From an uncultured Candidatus Saccharibacteria bacterium (lineage in GTDB: Bacteria; Patescibacteriota; Minisyncoccia; Phycocordibacterales; UBA918): a stretch of DNA of 64,000 bases. The position numbers and the translations under genes are program-made. Below are positions 800 to 56,946 of this stretch, piece after piece. Location: positions 34,334 to 98,333 of the forward strand of contig CAYXYJ010000001.1 in assembly GCA_964469295.1 (NCBI GenBank), written 5' to 3'. Below the pieces are notes generated by a model. It had not been told where the DNA came from. It was given only the letters and a program-made list of their open reading frames with translations, and ran no database searches. The first letter of the stretch is position 1. Each line of letters opens with the position of its first letter.

Positions 800-1351
800 T
801 TATTGCGCCGTCAGCAGTGACTCCACCAGGGTTTTCATAGCGTCTTTGGTAAGCGGTTGGCGTTCATGAGTGACGAGCGCCCCTTCGCTGTCATACACTA
901 GTGTTTCGGGCATGGCATAACCGCCAACTTGTCCATAAAAATTATCCGTCGTATCAATGACTATAGTGAGGTGTGGCAATGGTGGCATGGTACTGAGAAA
1001 TCGTTCCGCTACATCTTTGGTTTCCTTACGATTGAGTGCAATAAAGGTAATACCGCGATTTTGATATTCACCAGCGATTTCATTTAGAGCAATGAGTTCA
1101 TCTCGTGATAACGGGCTCCAACTAGCCCAAGAGTTAATGTAGAGAATTTGATTGGTGTACGATTCGAGCGACACTTCTTCGCCTTGCATACCAATATATC
1201 GAACCAGTTCAGGGTTGCCAAATAATGCATCTTCAAGTGCTGACGGGGGTTGGTTATTTGTATACACACGATATGTCGCATAGCCCACCGCGCCAGCAAC
1301 AATAAGAATGCCAGACAGAACCAGGATTGCCTGTTTGCGCTCACGTACCAT
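800..1351 (-). CDS. TlpA/ResA-like thioredoxin-fold protein lacking both active-site cysteines (WASWSPLS instead of WASWCGPC)
   Basis: 183 aa with an N-terminal TM/signal (ILVLSGILIVAGAVGYA). The redoxin-like core NSWASWSPLSRDELIALNEIAGEYQNRGITFIALN...MPETLVYDSEGALV aligns with the TlpA/ResA pattern. The CXXC motif is replaced by SPLS. Confidence 0.6.
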   Translation of the reverse strand: MVRERKQAILVLSGILIVAGAVGYATYRVYTNNQPPSALEDALFGNPELVRYIGMQGEEVSLESYTNQILYINSWASWSPLSRDELIALNEIAGEYQNRGITFIALNRKETKDVAERFLSTMPPLPHLTIVIDTTDNFYGQVGGYAMPETLVYDSEGALVTHERQPLTKDAMKTLVESLLTAQ

Positions 1352-1354
1352 ACA

Positions 1355-1840
1355 CTAGCCTTTTATATACAGCTCAAAGTCATCAGGAGTTTCTCCTGGC
1401 TCAGCCTCTATAAGATTAAGTTCTATTGGTTGTCCGTTAAAGGTAGCTTGTAGCGTGGCTTGATTGCTGGCAGTAGCAGATACCATAAACCGCTGTATGG
1501 TTACGACTTGGGCGCATGTATCGGCGTCATTTTTTACCCCAAAAGCAAACGTAACTTGTTCCGGGTGTGATTCCGCAACGCGAGAATCGTACGTCAACAA
1601 ATCACATGGCGTTGGCATTGGAACTTCACCAACGATGGTATGTACACCATCAATATAAAAGTGTTTGGCATCAATACGCGTAATACCATACGTATCAACA
1701 TTTTGTGTGTCAGTGTCTGCGGTGTCTTCAGGTGACGGCGCGGTCGCTTCTTTAGCTAAAAATGTATAGGTAAACATTCCAGCAACAATGGCTCCTAATA
1801 GAATAACGACGAGTATAATAGTACGTGATTGCATATACAT
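1355..1840 (-). CDS. small secreted/membrane-anchored hypothetical protein
   Basis: 161 aa with an N-terminal hydrophobic segment IILVVILLGAIVAGMFTYTFL. Its start is 3 nt from the preceding gene's stop. I recognise no motif. Confidence 0.4.
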   Translation of the reverse strand: MYMQSRTIILVVILLGAIVAGMFTYTFLAKEATAPSPEDTADTDTQNVDTYGITRIDAKHFYIDGVHTIVGEVPMPTPCDLLTYDSRVAESHPEQVTFAFGVKNDADTCAQVVTIQRFMVSATASNQATLQATFNGQPIELNLIEAEPGETPDDFELYIKG

Positions 1841-1873: not shown

Positions 1874-3535
1874 TCACTGTTTTTCCACTGCGTCCCGACC
1901 AACGTATATAACAATGTCAATCGGGAGTGCAGTGTCCGATTCTACCGATGATAGCGGTGCGCCACTGAAAAATTTACTTAATTCTAGAGCAGTTGATAAT
2001 GCCGACGGTCGAAATACAATAACCGTTCGGTTTTCAACGGTAGATTCGTCTACTGTAAGTGATTCAATGGCATATCCTGCCTCAATTAACCGTAGCTTTT
2101 GTACTGCAGCAGTACCAGGTATACCGCTTCGATTAGTAATAGCAATAGTACTACTAGTGATATTTGACACAACTATGTTTTGATTGTTTTCTGCTAACTT
2201 TTCGAAATACACGTCTTCTGATGAGAGTGTCTTGGCCGATCCGTCATGCATGACACTCACTTCATACGATACCGTATCAATAGTCATGCGATGAATAATA
2301 ATTACTATCCCAACAATCACCCCAACAAGAATCAGACAGCCCATGAAAAACAATCTATAGGTGTAGAGCGAGCGCACCAGCGAACGTAACCGATGCGTAA
2401 AAATATCATGATTACGCCACGAATTTATCATGTCATCTACCCCAACCCGCACTGGAGCGGTGACGGTTTGGTAGCGACTGATGACGACGGTATTTTTCTG
2501 TGAACTGGCCACTCGTTTTGAGTAGTAATAATCACGATGGTCGCTAGATAACGCGATCATTCTTTTTACATAACGACGGACAAGGATAGACAAAATATAA
2601 AACGCTAACGCAAAACCAACAACAACAACCAGTATAACTTTATAGGGGAAAACCCAAAAATACGTTGTGCTCGTGGCAAACTGTTTTGATTCATCGCCAT
2701 AGCCAACCGTAGCCACTGCTTTATATCGACCTATATCAAATAATGAGGTATTACTCTGCCAATCAAACGAAAATTTTCTTACGCTATTAGGCAATACATT
2801 TCCAAAACGTGTCTGATAATTAATCGGAATTTCTCCCCGAAGATTACCCCACATGTTGTATACATTGATGTTGCCTTGTGGTCGTAAATGAACATTGCCT
2901 TTATTTTCAAAGCGCAAATCAAAAGTGGTACCAGCTTTTTCCATAATAGTATGGGAAGTGGTGAATTCTCGAATGTCACCAGATTCAATAACATCTCCGG
3001 CTACACGAATAAAAAATAACGACGTAACAAATTGTGCCGTCTGCACTGATGATTCGCCCTCCGGTTCGTTAGTTGTGGGTTTCGTTCCCACCAAAACCGC
3101 AGCGTAGTGTCCACCTGGGGTAGCGTCAGCCGGTACAGCGACAGAAATAGGAATGGTCACAGTTTGTTGTTTTGGAACAACAATAGCTTCAGAAGAAATT
3201 TTCATCCATTCACCGAGTGTTGTATTCTTGGTTTCATTTGTATTGATCGGCACAAAATCACCACGCCCGTCTTCTCCCTGCGGTTCAAAGTTGTAAATCT
3301 CGGGATAGACTGTTAAATCGTATAAATTTACATTAACGATTCGTAATTCACTTTGCCATACTTGTCCCGGATTAGCTTTTACTTCAAAAAGCGTCGGGGA
3401 AATACTTAAGGTCTGACTTTCTGGCGATTCTTGTGCGAGAACTAACAGTGGCGTACAACAAAGCACGACAAAAAGCAACAAGATTGTTGCCAGTGTACGT
3501 AGAGAAAAACTAGCGGTCTTTAAGGTTAACATCAT
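1874..3535 (-). CDS. B-family paralog B1: signal peptide + DUF916-like two-domain ectodomain + TM + cytoplasmic loop + TM + C-terminal LytR_C-like domain
   Basis: 553 aa. Signal peptide LLLFVVLCCTPLLVLAQESP. The ectodomain shares the B-family pattern (...NPGQVW...LGEWMKIS...VPADATPGGHYAAVLVG...). TM VILVVVVGFALAFYILSILV is followed by a basic stretch RRYVKR. A second TM is LFFMGCLILVGVIVGIVIII. The C-terminal ~150 aa (NIVVSNITSSTIAITNRSGIPGTAAVQKLRLIEAGYAIESL...IDIVIYVGRDA) resembles the LytR_C (LCP C-terminal) domain pattern. Confidence 0.55.
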   Translation of the reverse strand: MMLTLKTASFSLRTLATILLLFVVLCCTPLLVLAQESPESQTLSISPTLFEVKANPGQVWQSELRIVNVNLYDLTVYPEIYNFEPQGEDGRGDFVPINTNETKNTTLGEWMKISSEAIVVPKQQTVTIPISVAVPADATPGGHYAAVLVGTKPTTNEPEGESSVQTAQFVTSLFFIRVAGDVIESGDIREFTTSHTIMEKAGTTFDLRFENKGNVHLRPQGNINVYNMWGNLRGEIPINYQTRFGNVLPNSVRKFSFDWQSNTSLFDIGRYKAVATVGYGDESKQFATSTTYFWVFPYKVILVVVVGFALAFYILSILVRRYVKRMIALSSDHRDYYYSKRVASSQKNTVVISRYQTVTAPVRVGVDDMINSWRNHDIFTHRLRSLVRSLYTYRLFFMGCLILVGVIVGIVIIIHRMTIDTVSYEVSVMHDGSAKTLSSEDVYFEKLAENNQNIVVSNITSSTIAITNRSGIPGTAAVQKLRLIEAGYAIESLTVDESTVENRTVIVFRPSALSTALELSKFFSGAPLSSVESDTALPIDIVIYVGRDAVEKQ

Positions 3536-4586
3536 GATCGTGATGATTACTTTCTAAACCGGTTCTCACATATACTGGTACCGAATCATCATGATCGGTA
3601 TGATCAATATCGTGATGAGTGCGACGATAATATAACCACGTAAGGACGGCTGATATAAAAAGCAACGCACCAAGTAATGTCACTAAAAAGTATAATGGCA
3701 CAACAGTAAAAAAAGTAGTGTCATACAAAGAGGCTTTTTGCTTTTCACCGTAGGTTAAATTTAAGAAAGCTTTATGACGACCAAAATGATGGGTATTTGG
3801 TAGCGGTTCAGTAAAGGTTTTTTGTTCACTTGGAGCAAGACTTATTTGATCGCTATTGAGTGGTACGGCACCAACTTCTTTTCCACGTACGTCATATAAA
3901 ATTACTTCACCTGAAGGCACTAGAGGAATGTCACCGGTATTTTCAAGTTCATATGTCACACTAGCGTCATTGATATCAGTCACATAACGATCAACAGTAA
4001 AGCGGTGTAACCGCAAATATTCCGATGTTGTATCAGTCACATCGATACGAACAGTCACACCCGGAGCGACGCCAGAGGCAACAATACGTTCAGCTTCGTC
4101 ACGTTTATCACCCTCAGCAAAGCCGATAAACGCGTAATATTCACCCGGCTTCGCGTTTGGGTTGATGGTGACTGATAATGGAATGCGAATCGTTTCGCCG
4201 GGAGCTAATTCTATTCGAGCTCTGGAAATTGCCAACCAACTTGCCACATTAGTGGTTTGGTCGGTCATGACAGGTGCAATAAATTCTTCAATTTTTCCAT
4301 CGATACCGAGAGTAATCGCATTTACTGTTGGAAAAATTTTTACCGGTACTGACCCTTGATTGGTTAATTTAATTTCTTCAACAATAGAACCTCGTGGTTC
4401 AAGTTCGTGTTCGATTACTCGGGGAGTGATTGCGTAAGAACTAGCAAAAAGCAGGTGTGGCAAGAAAAGAAAACTACCTACTATGAAAAGTAGTCTAGTA
4501 GACAGGAAGGGCAATGTAAACAATTTCAGTTTCATAATCACCGGCCGGTTGAGCTGACCTAACCAATACTCGATATAGCATATCAT
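3510..4586 (-). CDS. B-family paralog B2 (DUF916-like surface protein with C-terminal TM anchor and His/Asp-rich tail)
   Basis: ORF of 358 aa. The likely true start is the internal Met at nt 4535 (MKLKLFTLPFLSTRLLFIVGSFLFLPHLLFASSYA is a signal peptide). Two beta-rich domains are followed by TM LYFLVTLLGALLFISAVLTWLYY and a tail RRTHHDIDHTDHDD. It overlaps the 3' end of the 2049-aa gene and overlaps B1 by 26 nt, which suggests translational coupling. Confidence 0.55.
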   Translation of the reverse strand: MICYIEYWLGQLNRPVIMKLKLFTLPFLSTRLLFIVGSFLFLPHLLFASSYAITPRVIEHELEPRGSIVEEIKLTNQGSVPVKIFPTVNAITLGIDGKIEEFIAPVMTDQTTNVASWLAISRARIELAPGETIRIPLSVTINPNAKPGEYYAFIGFAEGDKRDEAERIVASGVAPGVTVRIDVTDTTSEYLRLHRFTVDRYVTDINDASVTYELENTGDIPLVPSGEVILYDVRGKEVGAVPLNSDQISLAPSEQKTFTEPLPNTHHFGRHKAFLNLTYGEKQKASLYDTTFFTVVPLYFLVTLLGALLFISAVLTWLYYRRTHHDIDHTDHDDSVPVYVRTGLESNHHDHDVNLKDR

Positions 4587-7500
4587 GAGATTCGTTCCCC
4601 GGGATAGGGCTATACATAATTTCAGCTAGTGCAGTGTGTAACCCAGCATAACTATCAAGCGGAGAAAACCGGGTTGATCCGTTTAATAAGGTCGCGTCAG
4701 TACTGTGATAGCCGACACAACCCGTCGCACTCGCTGTACAGCCAGTACTCCACCCAACGGGTATTGCATTTGATCCCGTGACAGATGGAATTGATACACC
4801 ATACGAATTTATAAGTTGTTGTCTAGCATACGTATAAATGCGGTACCCATCAGTGGCGTTTGTCGTGATACCAATACGATGCGCGGCGTACACATTTGTA
4901 TTAGGAGCAATCGAACCAAAGGCAATAGCGGTCGGCGTCGTCGACACCGTTGTAGTAACTCCAGCGGTTGACGTACCACTCGGTAAACCACTGACGGTAA
5001 AAGACAACTTTGGAGTTTCTGCCACCAAACTTGGGTACACTTCCCCACTCGCTGCTGGCACAGGTAGGTTTTCATAGACATCGTATAAACGGAAATAGTA
5101 CACTGCACCAGCCCGAGCTGCTGCGTGCTTTAAATAAAAAGCATATTCAGCATTTGCGCCAGCATTGTGTGTATGACCAGCAGCATACACCGCCGAACGA
5201 TTATGTGTCCCACAACCAGAACCAACAGCACTCACACAAGTATCTGCGTCAGATAATACTTTTGTTGTAATGGTAGCATTTTCTTGACCGCCACCATCGG
5301 CATAACACCAGGTCGAAGTGGCCGTGCAGCTGGATGAAGCAACGAGTGTTGTTGGATGGGTAAAGTTAGGATCTTCGTCATATTGCAAACTAAATTTAGT
5401 ATCAATGCCACGAACATGTTTTTGTTCACCAACAGTTACTCGTAACGCAATCACATTTCCATTTTGTACTTCTGTTGGTGCCACTATTTCATTAGCCATA
5501 GCCGTTGCCGGAGTTTCGTTTTGCGCATCATCGTAAAATCGCCAATTTTTTGTTTGCGGGGTAAAACCAGCAGTGCGTATTTGTGGATAATTGAAATACC
5601 CATCAAGAGGCGTTCCATCAGCATGTACCATGCGGAAACAGTAAACACTTTTTTCAGCCGCGCCGTTTTGTTCAACAAACCACTCATATTCAACATCTTC
5701 GCCAGCGTCAACCGGATACGGGTTACTTGGTGACGTACCATCTTCAATCAAACTACCGACTCGATCGGATACCGAAATAAGTAGTTCACCGGGGTTGGGT
5801 GGATTGCTTCCAATTGATACGCCATCAGTCGTGCCGGTCGCCGCATAACCACGCCATAGTTCGCCACTTCCAGCATCACCCAAATTAGTCCACGAACCAA
5901 CCGTCGCACACGAAGTAGTTCGTAACCCGTATTGCAAACGGAAAACATACAGTCCGCTTGGTAAGGTGGCGTTGGCTACTCGCAATGTCATACGTAACCG
6001 TACGTGTTCATTTTCGCCAAGCGGACTGTCGGTAACAGTAATTGGACTATTTTCACCTAAATCGGTGACACCCGGTGGCCATGGATCAGTGGGGGTTACC
6101 GTATTGTTATCAGCATATAAACGATAGTAGTTTTGACGCACTGCTAATCCCGATGTTGGCCATTCGACAATTTCTGAACGAAATACCATGTCCGCCGAAG
6201 CTTCACTTCGCCAAACTTCGTATGTACTTGTTGAAGTGATTCGCGCCCCAGCAAATACCAAGGGGAAATTTGAATTAGCACCAACCACTCGTGAGGTAGC
6301 GAATATCGATGTGTTGTCCGTAGCAGACACTGGATCAATGATGCTTTGCGATAGGACATAGGGTTCACTATTGCTACTAGGGATAGTGAGCTTTTCACGT
6401 GACGTAACCATTGCACCAGCGCTTGTTTGCATGTTTTCAATTACCCAAGCTACAGACGTATGACCACTCGGTGTCGTAGCAGCGCTTTCCAACTGAAACG
6501 AAACAGCGCCAATGCTGGACAACCATACTTCATGACCAAAATTGTTAACGTTAGACAAATTACTTATTCGCTTTTGCGCGTGAATAAATGTCCGCTCAAG
6601 GCTATTGACGGGATTCATTGCTTCGGTTTCGGTAATGGTTGACGAGGCATAGGTGTGTTCAATTCGCTGCACATTCCAGTTAATTCCGCTGTATTCAACA
6701 ACAGCGTAACTTACATCGACAATTGCACCCGTAGAACCACGTAAAAATGTCGGGAGATTATTGTTTGCGTCCCAGTTGGTAGTCACTTGACTGGCATAAA
6801 AGAAATTTCGACCAGTATTGCGATTTTGTATACCGGTAATAAACACCACTACATCAGCATCATCAGTCACACCACTAACCGTTGTGCCCGTCGCGGATGT
6901 GCTGGCACTCGCTAAACTCATTGTGCCAGTACCCAACACTTTCATTTCGTTATCAGTACCGGGGTCGGCAATAAACTCCACAATTTCCCATGTAACACGG
7001 GTATTATTAATCGCCGTTGTCGGCCGAGAAATTGTAAAACTAGTCAATAAGTTGCTTTGACTGATATAGGCAGTAGTATCGTCAGCATTTTGCGCACCAC
7101 CACCAGCGGTTACTTTTCCGGCTCCAGTGAAGTGAGTGTCCGTGATCCGCACAAAGGCAGTTGACGTACTACTTGGTGCCACATAATCGACACCAGCCAC
7201 TAAGGTTGTGCTGGTGCCGGTGACCACGGCCACTCCTTGTTGTACTTTAAAATCTCGTTTTGGTGCCGTTCTTATTTCGGCGTAATTTGTATACTGCGGA
7301 AGCATTTCTCCTCCACCAGTTAACCGAAAACAATATGCCGAATCTACCAACGTTATATTAGTAGAAGTAATACTAAATTCAAATTCAGTGTATTCATTTG
7401 TTGCGAGCACTAGAGCAGTGGTAGTTGATGTGGTATCACGGACTCCGGCATTACTTACCAAAAAATTAACGTTTTCGTCAGTAATTCCCCCATTTCCGTT

Positions 7501-10500
7501 GGCAATATTTGTTGTATTGTTACCATTAGTAATATTTATTGAATCATACATATCCCAATCATCTGTAGCACTTCCTACTGGCGTCCATACAGCGACCATA
7601 TCGCACGTTGTTACTTTCGGTCCAAATTCTAATCGGTACGTTCGTGATACTGATGTGGCATAGCCTTCGTTACTAATACCAATACGTAAACGAATTGGAG
7701 TATTGGCAGAATGATTGGTTAGTGGAGTATTTTCCATACCAAGCGTAGCTGACGTCGCTCCAGTTTCATTCCCGTTATCGTTACGCCAGTGATAATTCGT
7801 CTGGGTAATGATTGAACCGGATAAAGTAGTTGTGCCTGTTAAGGTTATCGATTCTGACGGTGACACAGATCCACTTGATACCACCACATCATTGGTTGGT
7901 GACTGTATACCAATATGAATCGTTTCCCCATTGTGAGCACCGGCTTCCACATCAAAAACCGCATAAATACACATGGTGGTAGTGGTACTAATACCCACCG
8001 AACCCGAAAACGTCGACGTTCCATTGGGCCCAGAAAAACCATCAGCGTCGGTAGTGCCAAATTGTGACTCACTGCCACTATATGATTCACTGGTACAGTC
8101 GTATGGTGCAGTAGTGTCGAGGTCGTAGCGGAGTTTTATGTTCTTTAGGTTGGTGTTGGCGTTGATGGTACCATCTTCGGCGATGGTGATATTCGAAACG
8201 GTTCTTGTGCTTACATTTTCTTTTATGACAAATTTTCCACCAACATAGGCATTGGTTGTTGGAACAATGAGTGACGATACTTGTGTACCGGTAGCCGCCA
8301 CCGATACATCAGCCGCAATCGTCGCACTCGGGTACCGGTCATACACAGGCAATGCTTGACCATTGTCAGTCAAGCGAAAACAATATGTCGTTCCTTCGTG
8401 TGCACTCGTCGATGCAACAATAGAAAATTCTAATTCAACAAAATTTGTGCTGGTTAATGTTAATGATCCAGTTTCTGACGATGTGTCACGGATACCATCA
8501 TTTGGTGTTAAAAACGTAGTGTTTTCGTCAGTCACCCCCCCGTTCCCAACCGCAATATTGGTAGTGTTGTTGCCGTTGGTCACAAACGATGAATTATACA
8601 TATTCCATGCGTCATTGGTCGCATTCACATCAATCCAAGACGCCGCGGCTTCACAAGTTGGAGCGGCTGTAGCATATTCCAAACGAAAACGAGTTGTGGT
8701 GGCAGTAATCGAACCTTCATTTGAAACCTGTACACGTAGCCGTCGTGGCGAGTTTGCCAGTAATGTTGATAAATCAGTATCTTGTACCCCACCAGTGACA
8801 GAAGTCGCGCCGGTTTCATTCCCGTCATCATTTCGCCAATGATAATGAGTTTGTGTAAACTTACTGTTTTTAATTACAGTGCTTGAAGCTATTTGAACCG
8901 CCGTAATCGGCATGACGGTTTGTCCACCAGTCACCACTACATCGTTATTTGGTGATTCTATAGTAATAGACAGCGTATCGCCATCAACGGCTGTCTTTGA
9001 TACATCTACAACTGCATAGACACACATGCTTTGGGTTGGAGAAATACTTACTAATCCCGAAAACGTCGACGTTCCATTGGACCCAGAAAAACCATCAGCG
9101 TCGGTAGTGCCAAATTGTGACTCACTGCCACTATATGATTCACTGGTACAGTCGTATGGTGCAGTAGTGTCGAGGTCGTAGCGGAGTTTTATGTTCTTTA
9201 GGTTGGTGTTGGCGTTGACGGTGCCTCGTTCGGTAACGGTAATTGTTGTGACATTGCGACTCGCTTGACTTTCGCGTATCGCATATTGACCACCAACATA
9301 CACATTGGAAGAGCTTGCGATGACCGTGCTGGTGGCGGTGCCGTTAGCGTACACTTTTACGGCCGGAGCAATATCAGCAATCGTATCACCGAACATATCA
9401 TCCGGCGACGGGTCATACCATGAGATAAAAATACGTTCATCGCTCATGGTGTTCATATCTAATCCACGAAAGTCTCCCGCTGTACTATTTACTGGACCTT
9501 GAGCCGTTGACCATGACGACATTGCGGATGTCGATGTCGACCAGTAGACATTACCGGTAGTAGCAGTGGCAGGCGTAGTGCGAAGTACATAACCAACGTA
9601 AATATTGTTGGTATTCGTATCCATTGATACTGCCACCATCGTTAATCCTCTTGAAGCAATATTTGTAAAAACATCAGCAGTATTTGACCACGCGTTTGAA
9701 GAATATTTTGCTGTTCTAATGTCATGATCAAGAGTGGTGAATTGATCATTATCGGCAGCATATACCAAATACACATCACCAGAGACAGGATCAACCGTTG
9801 CCGCCATACCAGTGTCGTATGTCGCATTTTCTATAGCGTTGGCATCAAATGTTGTCCAAAGTCCAGACCAACTTGCACCGTTCCAAACCCGAGATCTCAT
9901 GTCATCAGCAGACGTATCTCGATTGATAATCATCACTTTACCACCAAGCAACGGTACGAGTAAATTCCAATCATTGGTCACATCCAAAAAGGCACTTCCC
10001 GCTTCAGTCCAATTTGCAGTATTGTTACAGGTTGTAGAACAATGAACCACAAACGCGTCAGATGCGTCAGCGGTGGCAATAAGTACATCACCGGTAGTAC
10101 TTTTCGTCATTGTGATGTTATTGGTTCCAACTGCCAACGTGGGCACTTGTCCAGAATTGGTCGTGGCATTTACTGGTGACGACCCCAACCATAAAGTATC
10201 GCTTGTTGTATCCAAACGATTGTAATACAAACTATCAGCTGCAGCTGACGTTTCCATAGTGGCAATATGGATATAGTTTCCGCTATCACCTGGCGTCCAC
10301 TGATCATACCAAACCACCATACTGCCACAGTCCGTACGAGCGTCCACAGTAACAGCGCTATTCCAACTTGTACCTCCGGTAGTAGTTTTACTATAAACAC
10401 ATGACCCGTTACTATCCCGATAGAATTTATACCCCACGGTATCAGAAACAAACACGGTTTGTGAACCACCAAAAAAATAGGAGTTGGCATCGGTGCTTGT

Positions 10501-10644
10501 TGTGGCATCTATGGTAACTTGCGCGGCTTCAACTATGACTGGACTAAATAAATATTGTAAAAAACCCCACTGCGATAAAAAAATTATCACAATCAAAAAG
10601 CCAGTTAATCCTTTACAGGCAAAAAGCGCTGGACACCTCCACAT
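4495..10644 (-). CDS. giant secreted surface protein (2049 aa): N-terminal BNR/Asp-box-like propeller region, two tandem ~351-aa modules, C-terminal A-type anchoring-like domain
   Basis: Signal peptide FLIVIIFLSQWGFLQYLF. The N-terminal region has Asp-box-like motifs (KTTTGGTSWNS, SNAWSNT, STSAMSSWST). A tandem duplicated module is present (NANTNLKNIKLRYDLDTTAPYDCTSESYSGSESQFGTTDADGFSG... then YHWRNDDGNETGATS...LRLRIGISNEG...YRLEFG...YCFRLT). The C-terminus ...SAQPAGDYETEIVYIALPVY matches the A1/A2 C-termini. Confidence 0.75.
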   Translation of the reverse strand: MWRCPALFACKGLTGFLIVIIFLSQWGFLQYLFSPVIVEAAQVTIDATTSTDANSYFFGGSQTVFVSDTVGYKFYRDSNGSCVYSKTTTGGTSWNSAVTVDARTDCGSMVVWYDQWTPGDSGNYIHIATMETSAAADSLYYNRLDTTSDTLWLGSSPVNATTNSGQVPTLAVGTNNITMTKSTTGDVLIATADASDAFVVHCSTTCNNTANWTEAGSAFLDVTNDWNLLVPLLGGKVMIINRDTSADDMRSRVWNGASWSGLWTTFDANAIENATYDTGMAATVDPVSGDVYLVYAADNDQFTTLDHDIRTAKYSSNAWSNTADVFTNIASRGLTMVAVSMDTNTNNIYVGYVLRTTPATATTGNVYWSTSTSAMSSWSTAQGPVNSTAGDFRGLDMNTMSDERIFISWYDPSPDDMFGDTIADIAPAVKVYANGTATSTVIASSSNVYVGGQYAIRESQASRNVTTITVTERGTVNANTNLKNIKLRYDLDTTAPYDCTSESYSGSESQFGTTDADGFSGSNGTSTFSGLVSISPTQSMCVYAVVDVSKTAVDGDTLSITIESPNNDVVVTGGQTVMPITAVQIASSTVIKNSKFTQTHYHWRNDDGNETGATSVTGGVQDTDLSTLLANSPRRLRVQVSNEGSITATTTRFRLEYATAAPTCEAAASWIDVNATNDAWNMYNSSFVTNGNNTTNIAVGNGGVTDENTTFLTPNDGIRDTSSETGSLTLTSTNFVELEFSIVASTSAHEGTTYCFRLTDNGQALPVYDRYPSATIAADVSVAATGTQVSSLIVPTTNAYVGGKFVIKENVSTRTVSNITIAEDGTINANTNLKNIKLRYDLDTTAPYDCTSESYSGSESQFGTTDADGFSGPNGTSTFSGSVGISTTTTMCIYAVFDVEAGAHNGETIHIGIQSPTNDVVVSSGSVSPSESITLTGTTTLSGSIITQTNYHWRNDNGNETGATSATLGMENTPLTNHSANTPIRLRIGISNEGYATSVSRTYRLEFGPKVTTCDMVAVWTPVGSATDDWDMYDSINITNGNNTTNIANGNGGITDENVNFLVSNAGVRDTTSTTTALVLATNEYTEFEFSITSTNITLVDSAYCFRLTGGGEMLPQYTNYAEIRTAPKRDFKVQQGVAVVTGTSTTLVAGVDYVAPSSTSTAFVRITDTHFTGAGKVTAGGGAQNADDTTAYISQSNLLTSFTISRPTTAINNTRVTWEIVEFIADPGTDNEMKVLGTGTMSLASASTSATGTTVSGVTDDADVVVFITGIQNRNTGRNFFYASQVTTNWDANNNLPTFLRGSTGAIVDVSYAVVEYSGINWNVQRIEHTYASSTITETEAMNPVNSLERTFIHAQKRISNLSNVNNFGHEVWLSSIGAVSFQLESAATTPSGHTSVAWVIENMQTSAGAMVTSREKLTIPSSNSEPYVLSQSIIDPVSATDNTSIFATSRVVGANSNFPLVFAGARITSTSTYEVWRSEASADMVFRSEIVEWPTSGLAVRQNYYRLYADNNTVTPTDPWPPGVTDLGENSPITVTDSPLGENEHVRLRMTLRVANATLPSGLYVFRLQYGLRTTSCATVGSWTNLGDAGSGELWRGYAATGTTDGVSIGSNPPNPGELLISVSDRVGSLIEDGTSPSNPYPVDAGEDVEYEWFVEQNGAAEKSVYCFRMVHADGTPLDGYFNYPQIRTAGFTPQTKNWRFYDDAQNETPATAMANEIVAPTEVQNGNVIALRVTVGEQKHVRGIDTKFSLQYDEDPNFTHPTTLVASSSCTATSTWCYADGGGQENATITTKVLSDADTCVSAVGSGCGTHNRSAVYAAGHTHNAGANAEYAFYLKHAAARAGAVYYFRLYDVYENLPVPAASGEVYPSLVAETPKLSFTVSGLPSGTSTAGVTTTVSTTPTAIAFGSIAPNTNVYAAHRIGITTNATDGYRIYTYARQQLINSYGVSIPSVTGSNAIPVGWSTGCTASATGCVGYHSTDATLLNGSTRFSPLDSYAGLHTALAEIMYSPIPGNESHDMLYRVLVRSAQPAGDYETEIVYIALPVY
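8003..8166. repeat. 164-bp near-identical direct repeat, copy 2 (inside the 2049-aa gene)
   Basis: Compared by eye with 9056..9219. It is identical except for one G/A difference (gggccc vs ggaccc, giving FSGPNG vs FSGSNG). The spacing is 1053 nt, equal to 351 codons. Confidence 0.8.
9056..9219. repeat. 164-bp near-identical direct repeat, copy 1 (inside the 2049-aa gene)
   Basis: Partner of 8003..8166. The flanking module homology is only ~60% at the amino-acid level, so this core looks recently homogenised. Confidence 0.8.
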
Positions 10645-13935: not shown

Positions 13936-15669
13936 TTATTCTACAAGATCAGTAACATCTTTCACTTCTTTATTTACACGTTGTTTTAGTGTGTTTAAAC
14001 CATCAGTCACTAATGTGATAATTTTTTCTTCACTGGTAGTTAATTTGTTAGTTTTTCTTGACTCAGATAATTCAACGACATACTCGTGTAAAGTTTTTTG
14101 TAATCTAGTAAATTCCGCACTAAGTACCGAAGACACTTCAACAGCTTCTTTATCAACATACTGACGCAAGCGTCGTACTCGATACCAGGTATACATGGTC
14201 ACGATAACCAACAATGCCAATAAGGCGATGAGTGGGATAAATACCGTTAAGAACGAAATAACATATGAACCAACTCGTAGTATACCACTTTGTTCGACTA
14301 ATAGTTTTACTGGCGCAGATACAACACTTTGTGCCCCATATTGATCTTTGGCTGAAACCGTAAGTGTATACACACCAGTAGCAAAAGCGTTATCAGGAAT
14401 AAATCTAAATTGACCGGATTCATCAGCAGTCACGGTATAGTTTTTTGGTTCAACACCAGTTTCAAAAACAGTAATAGTCACTTCAGCTCCACCGCGAGTT
14501 TTACCGGTTATGGCGGGAATAATACCGGGCGGAATACGGACGGGTACATCCAGTAGCACCGGAGCATCAAATGCCTCAATCGTAATTGACAGGTTGGCAA
14601 AAGCGCTATTGCCAGCTTCGTCAATCGCTTCAATTACAAGGTTATGGGCTCCTGGTGCCAGATCAGTTACCGTTAGAGAATTTTTGTTGTCGGGATTAGT
14701 AAACTCTTTTATTTCTCCACCATCAACTTGCACTTTGAATGTTTTAATTGGCGCACCATTATTGCTCGTCGTGGTTGCAATAATTGTTTGGCTTGGATTG
14801 GCTAAGTTATTGTCAGGAGCAAGACTAACCGAAAAATTTTCCGGCGCACTGCCATCCACGGCCAAACGATAATGCGTCACCTTACCCCAACCGTCAGCAT
14901 TTTTAAATTGAATATGAAGATACGAAATACCCTCATCCAAATCACGAAGTGTCAGTGATGAGATTGGCGTGTCGTATACTTTGGTGGGAATAGCGGTCGG
15001 GTTACTATCTAAACTGGTACGCACCGCCGTCACTCCGGCTGGTACTGTCCACGTTAACTCAGCGGTGGTACTTTTTGACCAACCATCAGCCGGATGAGTG
15101 ACTGAAGTAACTTTGGGAGCGGTCGGTGTATTCGCTGATGGCACAAATTCCACGACAACTTCTGGCGCGGGGGCCGAACTGGCAGCGGTGACGGTGTAGG
15201 TTCCGCTATTCATATTTGTTAGCACATTTGTACCACGACCATCAGCAGCAAGCACTGAACCACCTGACATCGTAATCCGCGCTGTTCCTGCTACTAACGT
15301 ACGGAACGTTACTGTCATAATGGTACCAGCGGCACCAGTATATCCGCTTGGCGAACCACCACTAAAAGTGATAGTGCCAGCACTATTAGAAAACGTGGGT
15401 TCAGTAGTCCATAGTGAAAAAATAGAACTCCCGCGAGAAACTGCTACAACCGATAATTGGGACGGATCAAATGATACGGTGCCGTCAGCAGCGTTAATTG
15501 ATTTTCCACTCGTATTAACTAAGACCGACACGGTAAATGTGTTACCAATCGTATAGACTCCGGTACTAGGTGACACCGACACTGACGCAGCGTTCACTGA
15601 TACACCAACCCCCAAACCAGCAAATATCACCACGAAAAATACTATTGTTTTATACAAAGAACGAATCAT
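13936..15669 (-). CDS. membrane-anchored cohesin-like scaffold protein with Ig/FN3-like domains
   Basis: 577 aa. The N-terminal domain AASVSVSPSTGVYTIGNTFTVSVLVNTSGKSINAADGTVSFDPSQLSVVAVSRGSSIFSLWTTEPTFSNSAGTITFSGGSP... matches the cohesin pattern. The C-terminus has a TM (FLTVFIPLIALLALLVIVTMYTWY) and a coiled-coil tail. It is a paralog of 50054..51616 (shared SLWTTEPTFSNSAGTITF). Confidence 0.6.
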   Translation of the reverse strand: MIRSLYKTIVFFVVIFAGLGVGVSVNAASVSVSPSTGVYTIGNTFTVSVLVNTSGKSINAADGTVSFDPSQLSVVAVSRGSSIFSLWTTEPTFSNSAGTITFSGGSPSGYTGAAGTIMTVTFRTLVAGTARITMSGGSVLAADGRGTNVLTNMNSGTYTVTAASSAPAPEVVVEFVPSANTPTAPKVTSVTHPADGWSKSTTAELTWTVPAGVTAVRTSLDSNPTAIPTKVYDTPISSLTLRDLDEGISYLHIQFKNADGWGKVTHYRLAVDGSAPENFSVSLAPDNNLANPSQTIIATTTSNNGAPIKTFKVQVDGGEIKEFTNPDNKNSLTVTDLAPGAHNLVIEAIDEAGNSAFANLSITIEAFDAPVLLDVPVRIPPGIIPAITGKTRGGAEVTITVFETGVEPKNYTVTADESGQFRFIPDNAFATGVYTLTVSAKDQYGAQSVVSAPVKLLVEQSGILRVGSYVISFLTVFIPLIALLALLVIVTMYTWYRVRRLRQYVDKEAVEVSSVLSAEFTRLQKTLHEYVVELSESRKTNKLTTSEEKIITLVTDGLNTLKQRVNKEVKDVTDLVE

Positions 15670-16694
15670 ATAATTTCATTTATCTCGTCGGTGATAGTTG
15701 TCGTCGCTTGTTTTTTCAATCTTCGACGTCGCCAGAAAATCACACTAATAATAATTAGAATAACAACAAACAAACCACCAGCTCCAATAATCAAAAAGTT
15801 GGTTGCGTTTTTATACCATGGCATAGAAAGGCCTTGTGGGGCTAACGTGGCCACATATTCATTTCCAGCTTTATCAATAGCTCGAACTCGAATGATACTT
15901 CGTAATGTCTGATCTTTAAGCACGTATGGACTACGCACTTCAGCCCATGGAGCAGTCGCCGCTCCAAATGAAAACCAATTAGCTTCTTCAGTGGATTCTT
16001 CTAGCACCTCGTAGTGACTAATGCCAGTTTGTTTGTCGGTAGTGTTAAAAACAATGAAATATTTATTATCAAACGCATAATTGTCTTGCTCAAGTGAAAT
16101 ATCAAATGGTTCTGGAGTGATGGTATCTTCGGCTACAGTATCGCGCCAACCATCAATAATATCCGAGCCAACGAAACTATTAAGTGTTAGCGTGGTGCCA
16201 AGTGTAGTCATAGTTGCCGCTGTACCAAAACCATCGTTTAAATATGCCGTTGTTTCTGGGGCAAAATTAACAGCAGCCATACCAGCCGATTCACCGCCGC
16301 CGATTTGCAATCCGGGTGAGCGAAATACGATTTCAGCCACCACATTAGTCAAACGAGGGTCACCTTCTATTCGTCTGCAATAACCATTGGGAATACCGCC
16401 AGCAAAAGTGATGGTACGATGTTCTTTATCAATCTTTGGATTTTCAACCCACACTGGGAAAATTGACCGACCAATTGACACATCAACGGGAACGATACTT
16501 GCATCATAGGTTACCACACCGTCAATCGCATTAATACATTCACCTTCAGCTTCATTAGTGTCCACTCGTAACGCTATCGTTACCGCATCACCACGATTTA
16601 ATGTGGCGGTTGGCGGATCCATATATAATGTCGCGGCCATTACTGGTGCACAAGACACAGACCAAAGAACTGCTCCAATTAAAAATTTCCACAT
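15666..16694 (-). CDS. cohesin-like domain protein with C-terminal TM anchor
   Basis: 342 aa. Signal peptide WSVSCAPVMAATLY. The domain ...DAVTIALRVDTNEAEGECINAIDGVVTYDASIVPVDVSIGRSIFPVWVENP...ITFAGGIPNGY fits the cohesin pattern. C-terminal TM LIIGAGGLFVVILIIISVIFW is followed by RRRRLKK. A 4-nt overlap with the upstream gene is present. Confidence 0.5.
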   Translation of the reverse strand: MWKFLIGAVLWSVSCAPVMAATLYMDPPTATLNRGDAVTIALRVDTNEAEGECINAIDGVVTYDASIVPVDVSIGRSIFPVWVENPKIDKEHRTITFAGGIPNGYCRRIEGDPRLTNVVAEIVFRSPGLQIGGGESAGMAAVNFAPETTAYLNDGFGTAATMTTLGTTLTLNSFVGSDIIDGWRDTVAEDTITPEPFDISLEQDNYAFDNKYFIVFNTTDKQTGISHYEVLEESTEEANWFSFGAATAPWAEVRSPYVLKDQTLRSIIRVRAIDKAGNEYVATLAPQGLSMPWYKNATNFLIIGAGGLFVVILIIISVIFWRRRRLKKQATTTITDEINEII

Positions 16695-23856: not shown

Positions 23857-23882
23857 TTACATTATGACACACTGGTTGCGCA

Positions 23883-54201: not shown

Positions 54202-54275
54202 ATATATGTATACCTATTGTACCGTGTCATTTACCAAAAATGCACGGTCACCCACAGGCTCATTTTTCGTTTACA

Positions 54276-55268: not shown

Positions 55269-55323
55269 AGGAACGTATAATTTTTAGTGACAATAATTTC
55301 CAGACTAATAATCAGTATTACTT

Positions 55324-55734
55324 TTACTTTGTAGCAAAACGCTGTTCCCGCGCCCGGAGGTAATCAAGAAAATAATTTAATATAATTAAAATGAGAATAA
55401 TAAATAATAGTGTGGCAATCACAAAAGTTGAACGGTTGACACCGACAGATTCACCACTCGAGAGACCAATTTCTATTTCTCGATCTCTGATTTTTGATTC
55501 TCGTTGCTGTAATTGTTGCTCGTACTCCGTCAAAGCGCTGGTGAGTTGATTCAACTCAGTCGGCGCCACTCCAACGCTCACTCCCACCGAATTAGCAACA
55601 TAATATCCCGCCCGCGATGACAAATCACTGGTCATGGAATTAAGCAATCCACTATCCATCAATAACACAAACGCCAACACTGCTCCGCTAATGCGTAGCA
55701 AGCTATGATAGGTAGTGTTCGAGAGCGATGACAT
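55324..55734 (-). CDS. small membrane protein with coiled-coil segment
   Basis: 136 aa. N-terminal TM AVLAFVLLMDSGLL, a Q/E-rich coiled coil, and a C-terminal TM IATLLFIILILIILNYFL. Confidence 0.4.
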   Translation of the reverse strand: MSSLSNTTYHSLLRISGAVLAFVLLMDSGLLNSMTSDLSSRAGYYVANSVGVSVGVAPTELNQLTSALTEYEQQLQQRESKIRDREIEIGLSSGESVGVNRSTFVIATLLFIILILIILNYFLDYLRAREQRFATK

Positions 55735-55744
55735 GGTGACAAAT

Positions 55745-56836: not shown

Positions 56837-56879
56837 CAGTATATCACTTGTCTGTCATCATAGATTACTCCTATAAACA

Positions 56880-56916: not shown

Positions 56917-56946
56917 TCTAATATTCAATTTTAGAACAGTGAATCT

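What the first reader, a model, noticed from the sequence alone, without database searches (positions are those of the whole stretch)
1874..10644. 2049-aa giant protein ends in the same C-terminal domain as the small A proteins and is followed by overlapping B2 and B1 genes
C-termini aligned by eye are as follows. A1 is VGYKVEISDLQEAGDDYTATLTYVATPVF. A2 is VAYQIQITPLQEAGDDYNTILTYIATPTF. The 2049-aa protein is MLYRVLVRSAQPAGD-YETEIVYIALPVY. The giant therefore appears to be an A-type anchoring domain fused to ~1900 aa of propeller and tandem modules. The B2 start overlaps its stop region and B1 overlaps B2 by 26 nt. This suggests that the B proteins are co-translated partners for whatever carries the A-type C-terminal domain. 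It is a modular 'cargo + shared anchor domain + membrane receptor' logic.
Basis: seen in the sequence. Interest (0 to 1): 0.7.

Follow-up and report, generated by a model that had tools for sequence, protein, structure and literature searches.

The report
Giant tip adhesin of CPR pilus
A 2049-residue surface protein of an ultra-small (CPR/Patescibacteria) bacterium ends in the same ~175-residue domain as two small pilin-like proteins. It is followed by two membrane-anchored chaperone-like genes, which fits a distant relative of the newly described Pam pilus and makes the giant protein a candidate for the subunit that grips the host cell.

Summary
The giant (4495..10644, minus strand) shares about 175 C-terminal residues with A1 and A2, not just 15 (HHalign probability 99.5%, E 7e-23). 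A profile built without A1 or A2 finds them at E 1e-25 and 1e-27.

This C-terminal domain (CTD) gives full-length but sub-threshold matches to NCBIfam CPR_Pam_pilin_C. It defines about 1,400 protein clusters, and it sits at the extreme C-terminus in 149 of the best 150. It is carried by proteins of 165 to 2469 residues.

B1 and B2, plus two further paralogs in the window, have a signal peptide, two PapD-like beta-sandwiches and a transmembrane helix. Their best structural and sequence matches are the Enterococcus WxL-interacting protein (WxLIP) and fimbrial chaperones.

Across 61 related loci, almost all labelled CPR, one operon recurs: CTD protein of 439 to 2139 residues, then B, B, an A-type protein of about 385 residues, then B. 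Many loci add an A-type N-terminal domain fused to a dockerin.

My reading is a Pam-like pilus assembled by donor-strand exchange without an usher. A-type pilins would form the shaft, B proteins would act as membrane chaperones, and the giant would be a lineage-specific tip adhesin. The filament itself and the tip position are inferred, not shown. This is a new variant of a kind first described in 2026.

The parts
4495..10644 (-). Giant 2049-aa secreted protein, a C-type subunit with a ~1650-aa N-terminal extension and the candidate tip adhesin. It has an N-terminal hydrophobic signal sequence (residues ~15-33, VEA|A) and 22 Cys.
   Evidence: ORF. Hydrophobic N-terminus and Cys count. Collinear orthologs of 2053 and 2054 aa occupy the same operon position in two Paceibacteria genomes. 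No Pfam or NCBIfam hit for the whole protein at E<=0.01.
4498..5016 (-). Shared C-terminal domain (CTD) of the giant, residues 1877-2049. It is a Pam-pilin-C-like domain ending ...AGDYETEIVYIALPVY.
   Evidence: HHalign against the A family: probability 99.5%, E 6.9e-23, 174 columns. NCBIfam NF058581 covers model positions 3-148 of 148 at giant residues 1904-2049, E 1.8e-4, 21.6 bits, below the 55-bit cutoff.
5017..5577 (-). 'NWRFYDD' beta-rich module, residues ~1690-1876. Together with the CTD it corresponds to the whole mature ~440-aa C-type protein of other CPR.
   Evidence: Alignment with P0174, P0187 and P0182 (40%, 38% and 40% identity). L004 and L005 C-type proteins match A4 profile positions 90-498.
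7282..9378 (-). Tandem duplication inside the giant: residues 423-772 and 774-1121, each an Ig-like part plus a 'HYHWRNDDGNET' module.
   Evidence: Off-diagonal BLASTP gives 50-66% identity, E down to 6e-61. Both copies also match the NWRxYDD part of profile A4 at E ~1e-6.
9385..10527 (-). N-terminal region of the giant, residues ~40-420. It may be a beta-propeller, but this is unverified. It is the least conserved part between orthologs.
   Evidence: Five degenerate xxSW[STN] motifs at residues 87, 205, 255, 315 and 371. Identity to the L003 ortholog is 38-43% here against 55-59% at the C-terminus.
3510..4535 (-). B2, 341 aa: signal peptide, two PapD-like beta-sandwich domains (34-166 and 174-278), TM helix 281-310, and a conserved cytoplasmic tail (..YVRxG..DHDxNLK). 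Candidate membrane-anchored chaperone. Its start overlaps the giant's last 13 codons and stop (41 nt).
1874..3535 (-). B1, 553 aa: a B2 paralog (26.5% identity) with a second TM helix and an extracellular LytR_C domain (463-548). It overlaps B2 by 26 nt.
   Evidence: BLASTP E 3e-21 to B2. Pfam LytR_C 2.3e-5 and WxLIP_PGBD 8.2e-5. TM segments. The B2/B1 pair is conserved in L001, L003, L004 and most other loci.
1355..1840 (-). 161-aa N-terminally anchored small protein, conserved downstream of B1 in close relatives. Role unknown.
   Evidence: Homologous position and size (157 and 159 aa) in L001 and L003. One N-terminal TM segment and 2 Cys.
800..1351 (-). Membrane-anchored thiol-disulfide oxidoreductase (ResA/DsbE-like), conserved at the end of the operon. 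It probably forms disulfides in the Cys-containing secreted subunits.
   Evidence: Pfam AhpC-TSA and Redoxin; NCBIfam ResA 1.6e-14. Same position in L001 and L003, with an added DsbA in L003.
16819..17976 (-). A1, 385 aa from MSRTK: an A-type pilin-like protein with a signal peptide, an N-terminal beta-sandwich (~40-187), a conserved linker (VAIxxPVxVTAxV) and the CTD (196-385).
   Evidence: More than 2000 homologs, the top 120 at 64-100% identity and ~385 aa. AF2 gives the N-terminal domain pLDDT 80-91 and the CTD 30-60. NF058581 is hit by 32 of 33 family members. Conservation is highest in the linker and the C-terminal strand.
56947..58074 (-). A2, 375 aa: the second A-type pilin-like protein, 52% identical to A1. 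It sits in the canonical A-B-small-protein arrangement.
   Evidence: BLASTP. Followed by B4 and p136, as in L004 and L005.
55745..56836 (-). B4: a B-family paralog immediately downstream of A2. The likely start is the Met at codon 11 (56806).
   Evidence: Pfam WxLIP_PGBD 2.8e-5. Three hydrophobic segments (residues 9-27, 291-309 and 344-362), read as a signal peptide plus two TM helices. It also matches the B-family HMM at 6e-80, but it was a member of that alignment, so that score is not independent.
55324..55734 (-). p136: a small membrane protein with a coiled-coil-like segment and an LNYFLDY motif at its C-terminal hydrophobic segment. It is conserved after the A-B pair.
   Evidence: The same motif and position are seen in L004 (85 aa) and L005 (127 aa). 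Two hydrophobic segments, residues 12-30 and 105-123.
52273..54201 (-). p642: A-type N-terminal domain plus linker, then Gly/Ser spacer, Big_6 and dockerin, with no CTD. Candidate pilus terminator/anchor subunit.
   Evidence: The A3 HMM matches residues 19-157 at E 1.1e-9. Pfam Dockerin_1 33.1 bits and Big_6. Alignment with L004 and L005 equivalents. 22 loci carry such an ORF, 18 of them with dockerin-like motifs.
13936..16694 (-). p577 and p342: membrane-anchored proteins with a C-terminal TM segment. p577 carries a cohesin domain, and p342 is homologous to the cohesin-region protein L004_286. A third such protein, p520, lies at 50054..51616. These are candidate docking sites for the dockerin-bearing subunit.
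   Evidence: Pfam Cohesin 33 bits in p577 and 38 bits in p520. TM segments. Homology to L004_286.
19595..20551 (-). B3c: the fourth and most divergent B paralog. It lies downstream of p624, which shares a different C-terminal domain with the 7749-aa protein.
   Evidence: BLASTP to B1 and B2 at E 1e-4 to 4e-5. TM segment 290-308. It also matches the B-family HMM at 2.4e-54, but it was a member of that alignment, so that score is not independent.

Best explanation
The region encodes part of a Pam-like surface filament system of a Paceibacteria (CPR/Patescibacteria) cell, assembled by donor-strand exchange without an usher.

All components are exported by Sec. The B proteins (B2, B1, B4) are membrane-tethered PapD/WxLIP-like chaperones. 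They bind the incomplete C-terminal Ig-like domain (CTD) of newly exported subunits and hand it on.

A-type proteins (A1, A2) have an N-terminal domain, a conserved linker strand and a CTD, and polymerise as the shaft. Each CTD is completed by a strand from the next subunit.

The first gene of the operon is the C-type subunit. It carries the same acceptor CTD but a different, highly variable N-terminal part, and it sits at the distal end. In this lineage that part has grown to about 1650 residues (a propeller-like region, duplicated Ig-like/NWRxYDD modules and further beta-rich sequence). The 2049-aa protein would therefore be the tip adhesin that contacts the host cell.

A subunit with the A-type N-terminal domain and linker but a dockerin in place of the CTD (p642) would stop growth. 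It would tie the filament base to membrane cohesin proteins (p342, p577, p520).

What is shown: the domain homologies, the fold of B2, the operon conservation, the C-terminal position of the CTD, and the variability of the N-terminal cargo. What is inferred: filament formation, donor-strand exchange, the tip position of the giant, and the dockerin-cohesin anchoring.
For: 1. The CTD is shared by the giant, A1 and A2 over ~175 aa.

2. The CTD matches NCBIfam CPR_Pam_pilin_C over the whole model, ending at the protein's C-terminus. This holds in 32 of 33 A-family members, 36 of 42 C-family members and 6 of 10 diverse locus proteins. Four C-family members also hit the PamT (tip pilin) model at 2.9e-7.

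3. The Pam pilus was solved by cryo-EM. It has N-terminal-domain/linker/truncated-Ig pilins and PapD-like chaperones (PamC, PamD) that carry a C-terminal TM helix (bioRxiv 10.64898/2026.03.03.709456). B2 has exactly that architecture at pLDDT 88.9. Its best matches are WxLIP and the fimbrial chaperones CfaA, EcpB, FimC and CsuC.

4. The operon C-B-B-A-B recurs in 61 related loci, almost all labelled CPR. A B gene follows 65 of 82 CTD genes.

5. The first-gene product ranges from 439 to 2139 aa while its last ~400 aa stay homologous. That is the pattern expected of a receptor-binding tip subunit.

6. Among 114 diverse A-type proteins, the linker and C-terminal strand are the most conserved parts and the N-terminal domain the least. 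The Pam paper reports the same for its pilins.

7. The AF2 model of A1 has a confident N-terminal domain but a low-confidence CTD. This fits a fold that needs a donated strand, though a shallow alignment could also explain it.

8. ORFs with the A-type N-terminal domain and linker but no CTD, mostly carrying dockerin-like motifs, occur in 22 loci. Cohesin-plus-TM proteins are encoded alongside.

9. A thiol-disulfide oxidoreductase is conserved in the operon of this lineage. [quoted passage not shown]
Against: - All NF058581 matches are below NCBI's curated cutoff (17-33 bits against 55), so these are not members by that rule.
- No confident structure of the CTD was obtained, and its fold search returned only generic Ig-like adhesins and pilins.
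- No filament has been seen for this lineage.
- No PamR-like anchor was identified.
- B2 has a conserved cytoplasmic tail that a passive chaperone would not need.
- The C-type family also has a conserved segment (YPSL...) at the position of the A-type linker. The giant could therefore be inserted within a filament, or not polymerise at all.
- A1 has no adjacent B gene.
Confidence: 0.55

Rival explanations
1. A WxL-type surface display without a filament. The CTD would be a non-covalent cell-envelope anchoring domain, analogous to the WxL domain of Firmicutes. The B proteins would be WxLIP-like holders that bind and stabilise CTD proteins one-to-one at the surface. A1 and A2 would be small 'domain-only' partners, and the giant would be a large adhesin displayed directly on the cell. 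This is essentially the first reader's 'cargo + anchor + receptor' idea.
Against: None of 32 CTD-bearing sequences hits any Pfam WxL model, even at E<=10, and CTD profiles hit no PDB chain, including the long WxL chain of 9i25. The CTD does match the Pam pilin C model, which comes from a solved filament. A-type proteins are not domain-only: they have a separate N-terminal domain and a highly conserved linker. N-terminal-domain-plus-linker proteins lacking the CTD exist, which is hard to explain without subunit-to-subunit contacts. The two readings may not be exclusive if WxL clusters themselves work by strand complementation.
Confidence: 0.27
2. The CTD is a C-terminal sorting or processing signal, like LPXTG, PEP-CTERM or the T9SS CTD. 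It would be recognised and removed, or covalently attached, by an envelope machine of which the B proteins are part.
For: The domain is always at the extreme C-terminus (149 of 150). It has a very conserved last strand ending in an aromatic residue. It is attached to unrelated cargos.
Against: At ~175 residues it is far larger than tripartite sorting signals, and it has no C-terminal hydrophobic helix or charged tail. No sortase, exosortase or protease domain was found in the B proteins or the conserved neighbours. The B fold is PapD-like, not enzymatic.
Confidence: 0.08
3. Chance resemblance or a low-complexity artefact: T/S/A-rich secreted proteins happen to end alike.
For: The proteins are rich in Thr, Ser and Ala.
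Against: An independent profile gives E 1e-25 to 1e-27 and HHalign gives E 6.9e-23. There are 1387 family clusters with the domain in a fixed position, and synteny is conserved.
Confidence: 0.01

Closest known systems
Pam pilus of Candidatus Mycosynbacter amalyticus (Saccharimonadia): PamA/B/E/T pilins, PamC/D chaperones, PamR (Troman et al., bioRxiv 10.64898/2026.03.03.709456; NCBIfam NF058581, NF058579)
   Same: - It is a CPR organism.
- Sec-exported two-domain subunits end in a C-terminal domain that matches the Pam pilin C model end to end.
- Several pilin paralogs share only that domain.
- PapD-like chaperones with a C-terminal TM helix are interleaved with pilin genes in one operon.
- There is no usher.
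- The linker and CTD are the most conserved parts.
- A Mg2+ transporter gene lies nearby: MgtE/CBS here, CorB there.
   Different: - Matches are below the curated cutoff (17-33 bits against 55), so this is a distant sister family, found here mainly in Paceibacteria and relatives. The preprint's text does not mention that class.
- The first subunit is not a single-domain PamT. It is a 440-aa protein that in this lineage has become a 2049-aa giant.
- No RbmA-like PamR was found. Instead there is an N-terminal-domain/linker/dockerin protein plus membrane cohesin proteins.
- One chaperone (B1) carries a LytR_C domain.
- Filament formation has not been observed here.
WxL gene clusters of Firmicutes: small WxL, large WxL and WxLIP (DUF916-DUF3324-TM) (Hassan, Chaudhuri & Williamson 2023, PMC10599100; PDB 9i1y, 9i25)
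   Same: The logic is identical: a small and a large secreted protein share a C-terminal domain and are encoded next to a protein with a signal peptide, two Ig-like domains and a TM helix. WxLIP is the best structural and sequence match of B2. AF2 predicts strand insertion from WxLIP into WxL.
   Different: The cargo's C-terminal domain is not detectably a WxL domain (no Pfam hit, no W-x-L pair). Only the first B domain gives weak WxLIP_PGBD matches. The host phylum is CPR rather than Firmicutes. A-type proteins have an extra N-terminal domain and linker. WxL proteins are described as peptidoglycan-bound, not filament-forming.
Classical, alternate and archaic chaperone-usher pili with two-domain tip adhesins (FimH/FimC, PapG/PapD, CfaE/CfaA, CsuE/CsuC)
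   Different: There is no outer membrane and no usher. The chaperone is membrane-tethered. The adhesin's extension is about 10 times larger than in FimH or PapG. The subunits have two domains. No sequence similarity to CU pilins was detected.

Membership tests
Pam pilus system (CPR) | Subunit C-terminal domain scores above the curated cutoff of NCBIfam NF058581 CPR_Pam_pilin_C (55 bits) | tested here: not met
   The giant scores 21.6 bits (E 1.8e-4, model positions 3-148 of 148) and A1 scores 27 bits. 32 of 33 A-family and 36 of 42 C-family members match (best E 1.6e-7 and 1.5e-9), and locus proteins score 17-33 bits. All are sub-threshold but span the full model and end at the C-terminus.
Pam pilus system (CPR) | [quoted passage not shown] | tested here: inconclusive
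   In the A1 AF2 model the N-terminal domain (40-187) is a beta-sandwich with pLDDT 80-91, while the CTD (188-385) scores only 30-60. The linker VAIxxPVxVTAxV is highly conserved. The Foldseek search of the model gives only generic Ig adhesins and pilins.
Pam pilus system (CPR) | PapD/FimC-like chaperones with a C-terminal transmembrane helix, encoded in the pilin operon | tested here: met
Pam pilus system (CPR) | Restricted to CPR/Patescibacteria | tested here: met
   The named homologs, and nearly all of the 56 genome loci, are CPR (Paceibacterota, Parcubacteria, Kaiser-, Nomura-, Azam-, Lloyd- and Uhrbacteria, Minisyncoccia). The five contigs labelled Gammaproteobacteria or Methylomirabilota are short MAG contigs (6-24 kb); L019, L023, L025 and L027 carry a CTD gene followed by a B gene, and L038 has B genes on both sides of its CTD gene.
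Pam pilus system (CPR) | Subunits polymerise into a helical filament by donor-strand exchange | not testable with these tools
   This needs multimer structure prediction or cryo-EM.
Pam pilus system (CPR) | RbmA-like, TM-anchored terminator (PamR) | tested here: inconclusive
   No separate RbmA-like ORF was recognised. RbmA appears only among the generic hits of B2 itself. A different candidate terminator exists: an A-type N-terminal domain plus linker plus dockerin.
WxL cluster (Firmicutes) | WxLIP architecture: signal peptide, DUF916-like and DUF3324-like Ig domains, C-terminal TM helix | tested here: met
WxL cluster (Firmicutes) | WxLIP domains reach Pfam gathering scores (PF06030 WxLIP_PGBD, PF11797 WxLIP_HBD) | tested here: not met
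   PF06030 gives 23.1 bits for B1 and 24.6 bits for B4 against a cutoff of 27.3, and 26 of 43 members match at E<=0.1 (best 8.1e-6). No WxLIP_HBD model appears among the listed matches (top 25 of 36 families).
WxL cluster (Firmicutes) | Cargo proteins carry a C-terminal WxL domain (Pfam WxL, dual Trp-x-Leu motifs) | tested here: not met
   None of 32 CTD-bearing sequences hits any Pfam WxL model at E<=10. CTD profiles find no PDB chain. The last strand reads Y-x-x-x-L-T-Y-x-A-x-P, which resembles the distal WxL motif only as I remember it; this was not tested.
Chaperone-usher pili | Outer-membrane usher encoded with the chaperone and subunits | tested here: not met
   No usher-like family appears among the 29 window ORFs scanned with Pfam. 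The conserved operons contain only CTD, B and small proteins.
Sortase/LPXTG-type C-terminal sorting signals | Short motif followed by a hydrophobic helix and a charged tail at the C-terminus | tested here: not met
   The proteins end ...IALPVY...ATPVF and ...ATPTF, with no C-terminal hydrophobic segment.

The most novel reading that the evidence does not exclude
Pam-type pili of CPR bacteria and the WxL/WxLIP clusters of Firmicutes may be two branches of one ancient monoderm system. In that system, usher-less, membrane-tethered chaperones would assemble or display surface subunits by strand complementation. In Paceibacteria the system would build a filament with three features: its tip subunit has been expanded into interchangeable giant adhesins of up to more than 2000 aa, those adhesins set host specificity, and the filament base is fixed to the cell by a dockerin-cohesin pair instead of a TM anchor.
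Probability: 0.3. Interest if true: 0.75.

Novelty: new variant of a known kind. Interest (0 to 1): 0.58.

Why it matters
CPR/Patescibacteria make up a large share of bacterial diversity and live attached to other cells, yet the molecules that recognise the host are almost unknown. The Pam pilus was described only in 2026, in one Saccharimonadia species, and no adhesin has been assigned to it.

This locus shows that a distant sister system is widespread in Paceibacteria and related classes (about 1,400 clusters at 50% identity). It also shows that the first subunit of that system is a hot spot for N-terminal expansion and cargo swapping. That yields concrete, testable candidates for host-binding proteins.

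The analysis also ties the Pam-type chaperone-like proteins to the WxLIP proteins of Enterococcus, Listeria and Lactobacillus, whose mechanism is still debated. Finally, it suggests a use for the many cohesin and dockerin proteins of CPR genomes: anchoring filaments to the cell.

Tried and rejected
- Pfam and NCBIfam on the whole giant gave no hit at E<=0.01.
- phmmer and profile searches of A1, the A family and the giant C-terminal family against PDB sequences found nothing meaningful. The hits were a PCNA repeat and uL11 at chance level.
- I tested whether the CTD is a WxL domain by running Pfam at E<=10 on 32 sequences. There was no WxL hit.
- A Foldseek search with the A1 model returned only generic Ig-fold adhesins and pilins, with BslA for the N-terminal domain. 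The CTD part of the model is too uncertain to use.
- NCBIfam on the B family, looking for Pam chaperone models, found none. There were only faint 'fimbrial chaperone' matches in 3 of 43 members at E 0.04.
- I tested whether the p624/7749-aa C-terminal domain belongs to the same family as the A/giant CTD. HHalign gave probability 1.5%, so it is treated as a separate family.
- I tested whether the gene upstream of the C-type gene in other CPR (795 aa in L004, 877 aa in L005) is the source of the giant's N-terminal extension. BLASTP found no similarity.
- An exact look-up of the source contig through B2 (P0201) found nothing on record, and cluster membership gave no name. The organism is therefore assigned only through named relatives.
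- A plain self-BLAST of the giant showed only the diagonal. A windowed search with the self region masked was needed to see the repeats.
- I considered an outer-membrane beta-barrel C-terminal signature, because of the terminal aromatic residue. I rejected it because the domain is soluble and Ig-like by homology, and because CPR cells are generally described as lacking an outer membrane (background knowledge, not tested here).

Full report
**1. What is in the window**

All large ORFs lie on the minus strand. The region of the finding holds five genes in transcription order:
- a 2049-aa ORF (4495..10644);
- B2 (ORF 3510..4586);
- B1 (1874..3535);
- a 161-aa ORF (1355..1840);
- a membrane-anchored ResA/DsbE-like thiol-disulfide oxidoreductase (800..1351).

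The true start is probably MSRTK at 17976, giving 385 aa like its homologs. A2 is 56947..58074. Named relatives of A1, B2 and the giant's C-terminal part come from Candidatus Paceibacteria, Parcubacteria or 'Patescibacteria group' MAGs. The organism is therefore a CPR bacterium. Proteins 100% identical to the window's A1 and B2 come from an NCBI contig of 149.5 kb.

**2. Checking the observation**

The three quoted C-termini are present exactly as written.

The similarity extends far beyond them:
- BLASTP aligns the last ~185 aa of A1 and A2 with giant residues 1879-2049 at 28-31% identity.
- HHalign of an A-family alignment against an alignment of the giant's C-terminal relatives gives probability 99.5%, E 6.9e-23, over 174 columns.
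- An HMM of the latter family, which contains neither A1 nor A2, finds them at E 5.6e-25 and 1.1e-27.

The 26-nt B2/B1 overlap is correct. For giant/B2 the likely B2 start is ATG 4535 (MKLKLF..., 341 aa, the length of the identical NCBI protein), which overlaps the giant's last 13 codons and stop by 41 nt. In two related genomes these two genes are 12-24 nt apart, while B2/B1 overlap by 26-53 nt.

The giant contains a clear tandem duplication: residues 423-772 and 774-1121, at 50-66% identity. It also contains further copies of an 'NWRxYDD' module. The N-terminal 'propeller' rests only on five degenerate Asp-box-like motifs.

**3. What the shared domain is**

Pfam finds nothing in it.

NCBIfam's CPR_Pam_pilin_C (NF058581) matches giant residues 1904-2049 across the whole model (positions 3-148 of 148, E 1.8e-4). 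It also matches:
- 32 of 33 A-family members;
- 36 of 42 members of the giant's C-terminal family;
- 6 of 10 diverse proteins from other loci.

In every locus protein that matches, the match spans the whole model and ends at the last residue, and all scores are below the 55-bit cutoff. Four members also hit the PamT model.

The Pam pilus was described in a 2026 preprint. Cryo-EM of Ca. [quoted passage not shown] The operon also encodes PapD/FimC-like chaperones with a C-terminal TM helix (PamC, PamD), a single-domain tip pilin (PamT) and a TM-anchored terminator (PamR).

A CTD-only profile made from the three window sequences was searched against 1.84 billion representatives. It finds 1387 clusters at E<=1e-3 and 263 at E<=1e-30. 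In 149 of the best 150 the match ends at the protein's last residue. Most proteins are 340-400 aa, but some are 457-673, 1022, 1819, 2047 and 2469 aa.

**4. What the B proteins are**

B1 and B2 are paralogs (26.5% identity, E 3e-21). The window holds two more:
- B4 (55745..56836), directly downstream of A2;
- B3c (19595..20551), downstream of p624.

AF2 models B2 with pLDDT 88.9 as a signal peptide, two beta-sandwich domains, a TM helix (281-310) and a disordered tail.

Its best matches are:
- Foldseek: Enterococcus faecium WxLIP (9i25_C and 9i1y, E 1.5e-11), followed by RbmA and the CfaA, CsuC and DraB chaperones.
- B-family profile against all PDB sequences: top hit EfmWxLIP1 (E 0.0024).
- Pfam: 26 of 43 family members give sub-threshold WxLIP_PGBD matches.

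B1 adds a second TM helix and an extracellular LytR_C domain.

WxLIP is the TM-anchored partner in Firmicutes WxL clusters. [quoted passage not shown] AF2 predicts a WxLIP strand inserting into WxL (PMC10599100). That is the same layout as here, although the CTD itself is not detectably a WxL domain.

**5. Context in other genomes**

The giant's last 449 aa retrieve 80 homologs. Many are complete ~440-aa secreted proteins, for example from Harrisonbacteria and Jorgensenbacteria, that align with the giant's last ~355 aa. I call these C-type.

I scanned 61 related loci with local HMMs of the CTD and of the B family. One operon recurs: C-type (439-2139 aa), B, B, A-type (~385 aa, sometimes two in tandem), B. 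Of 82 CTD ORFs with at least 1.2 kb of downstream sequence, 65 have a B ORF within 3 kb on the same strand.

Two further components are conserved:
- After the A-B pair comes a small membrane protein with an LNFYLDY motif, the homolog of window p136.
- Then comes an ORF with the A-type N-terminal domain and linker but no CTD. It occurs in 22 loci, 18 of them with dockerin-like motifs. Window p642 is of this kind, with Pfam Dockerin_1 at 33 bits.

Cohesin-plus-TM proteins are encoded alongside: p577, p520 and the related p342.

In this window the ancestral operon is split into two parts: giant-B2-B1 at 1874..10644, and A2-B4-p136-(MgtE)-p642 at 52273..58074.

Close relatives (L001, L003) have collinear 2053- and 2054-aa orthologs of the giant. 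More distant giants (L016, L044) share only the last 400-550 aa, and other CTD proteins carry an SBBP beta-propeller. The N-terminal part of the first subunit is therefore a swappable cargo.

**6. Mechanism proposed**

- Shown: the CTD homology, its terminal position, its attachment to varied cargos, the PapD/WxLIP-like TM-anchored architecture of B, and the CTD-B gene linkage.
- Also shown: among 114 diverse A-type proteins the linker (V.I...V.VTA.V) and the last strand (LQEA.DY...LTY.ATP.F) are the most conserved parts and the N-terminal domain the least. The Pam pilins behave the same way.
- Inferred: B proteins bind and stabilise the incomplete CTD after Sec export. A-type subunits polymerise by strand donation. 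The C-type subunit (the giant here) sits at the distal tip, because it carries the acceptor domain, lacks the A-type N-terminal domain and its SDTLSDS motif, is encoded first, and has the variable N-terminal part expected of a receptor-binding subunit.
- Also inferred: the N-terminal-domain/linker/dockerin protein caps growth and docks onto membrane cohesins, playing the role given to PamR in M. amalyticus. The conserved oxidoreductase would form disulfides in the secreted subunits (the giant has 22 Cys).

The low AF2 confidence of the A1 CTD (30-60) next to a confident N-terminal domain (80-91) fits a fold that needs a partner strand. It could also reflect the shallow alignment.

**7. Rivals**

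- A non-filamentous WxL-like display (CTD as envelope anchor, B as holder) is the main alternative. It is supported by the WxLIP matches. It is weakened by the Pam-pilin-C matches, by the two-domain A-type architecture and by the CTD-less N-terminal-domain/linker proteins.
- A cleavable sorting-signal role is unlikely. The domain is large, it has no terminal hydrophobic helix, and no enzyme is linked to it.
- Chance is excluded.

**8. Novelty and score**

The kind of system is known: the Pam pilus (2026 preprint, NCBIfam models) and WxL/WxLIP clusters (2023).

What is new here:
- a sub-threshold sister family that is widespread in Paceibacteria and related CPR classes, which the preprint's text does not mention;
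- expansion of the first subunit into giant, interchangeable adhesin-like proteins;
- a dockerin-cohesin candidate anchor;
- the link between Pam-type chaperone-like proteins and WxLIP.

I rate it a new variant of a known kind, interest 0.58.

Noticed in passing
window 20691..22565 (p624), 26756..50005 (7749-aa ORF), 19595..20551 (B3c): This is a second 'small + giant share a C-terminal domain, followed by a B gene' set. The last ~290 aa of the 624-aa protein and of the 7749-aa protein are 32% identical (E 4e-18), and p624 is followed by the B paralog B3c. This C-terminal domain (..YWGI.VP....F..P) is not detectably related to the A/giant CTD (HHalign probability 1.5%).
   Followed up: partly
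window 52273..54201 (p642); L004:14370-15215; 22 loci in all: These proteins have the A-type N-terminal domain and conserved linker but a dockerin (often after Big_6) in place of the CTD. They are encoded near cohesin-plus-TM proteins (p577, p520, and the related p342). This suggests that CPR cohesin-dockerin pairs anchor pilus-like filaments to the cell.
   Followed up: partly
window 3510..3600 (B2 C-terminal tail): The cytoplasmic tail of B2-type proteins is conserved across homologs of 35-64% identity: R324, H334, D335 and L338 in the motif YVRxG...DHDINLK. That is unexpected for a passive extracytoplasmic chaperone and hints at a cytoplasmic partner. The B1 start codon lies inside this motif's coding sequence.
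   Followed up: no
window 26756..50005: The 7749-aa ORF has long Gly-rich tracts and repeated modules. It shares several modules with the 2049-aa giant (for example 38% identity over 99 aa, giant 1504-1601 against 1913-2009). It is followed by an fn3-rich protein and a MacB-type ABC transporter (22642..25205).
   Followed up: no
window 54276..55268: A divalent-cation transporter gene with MgtE and CBS domains sits between p136 and p642, inside the split operon. The Pam preprint reports a CorB-like Mg2+ transporter conserved next to the pam operon of M. amalyticus.
   Followed up: no
A-type proteins, mature N-terminus (A1 residues 41-60 of the 385-aa form): A motif SDTLSDS..(x)..NHT lies right after the signal-peptide cleavage site. 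It is conserved in A-type pilins and in the CTD-less dockerin proteins, but absent from C-type proteins. It could be an N-terminal donor strand, as in classical chaperone-usher pilins, instead of or in addition to the linker.
   Followed up: partly
P0160 (homolog list); window 58373..59641 and 61753..62184: One database homolog of the giant's C-terminal part is annotated with an N-terminal Peptidase_S24 (UmuD/LexA-like) domain, which is probably a chimeric gene call. The window itself carries umuD-like (S24) and umuC-like (IMS) genes near A2.
   Followed up: no
L036:1347-10552; L055:4947-7079: L036 carries three tandem ~1010-aa CTD proteins. The one scanned against NCBIfam has an SBBP beta-propeller, and no B gene lies within 10 kb. 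L055 carries a 711-aa ORF that matches the B HMM, the PamT model and the Pam pilin C model at once. That ORF may be a chaperone-subunit fusion or an assembly artefact.
   Followed up: no
L019, L023, L025, L027, L038: Five short MAG contigs labelled Gammaproteobacteria or Methylomirabilota carry CTD and B genes like those of the CPR-type operon. They are most likely mis-binned CPR contigs.
   Followed up: no
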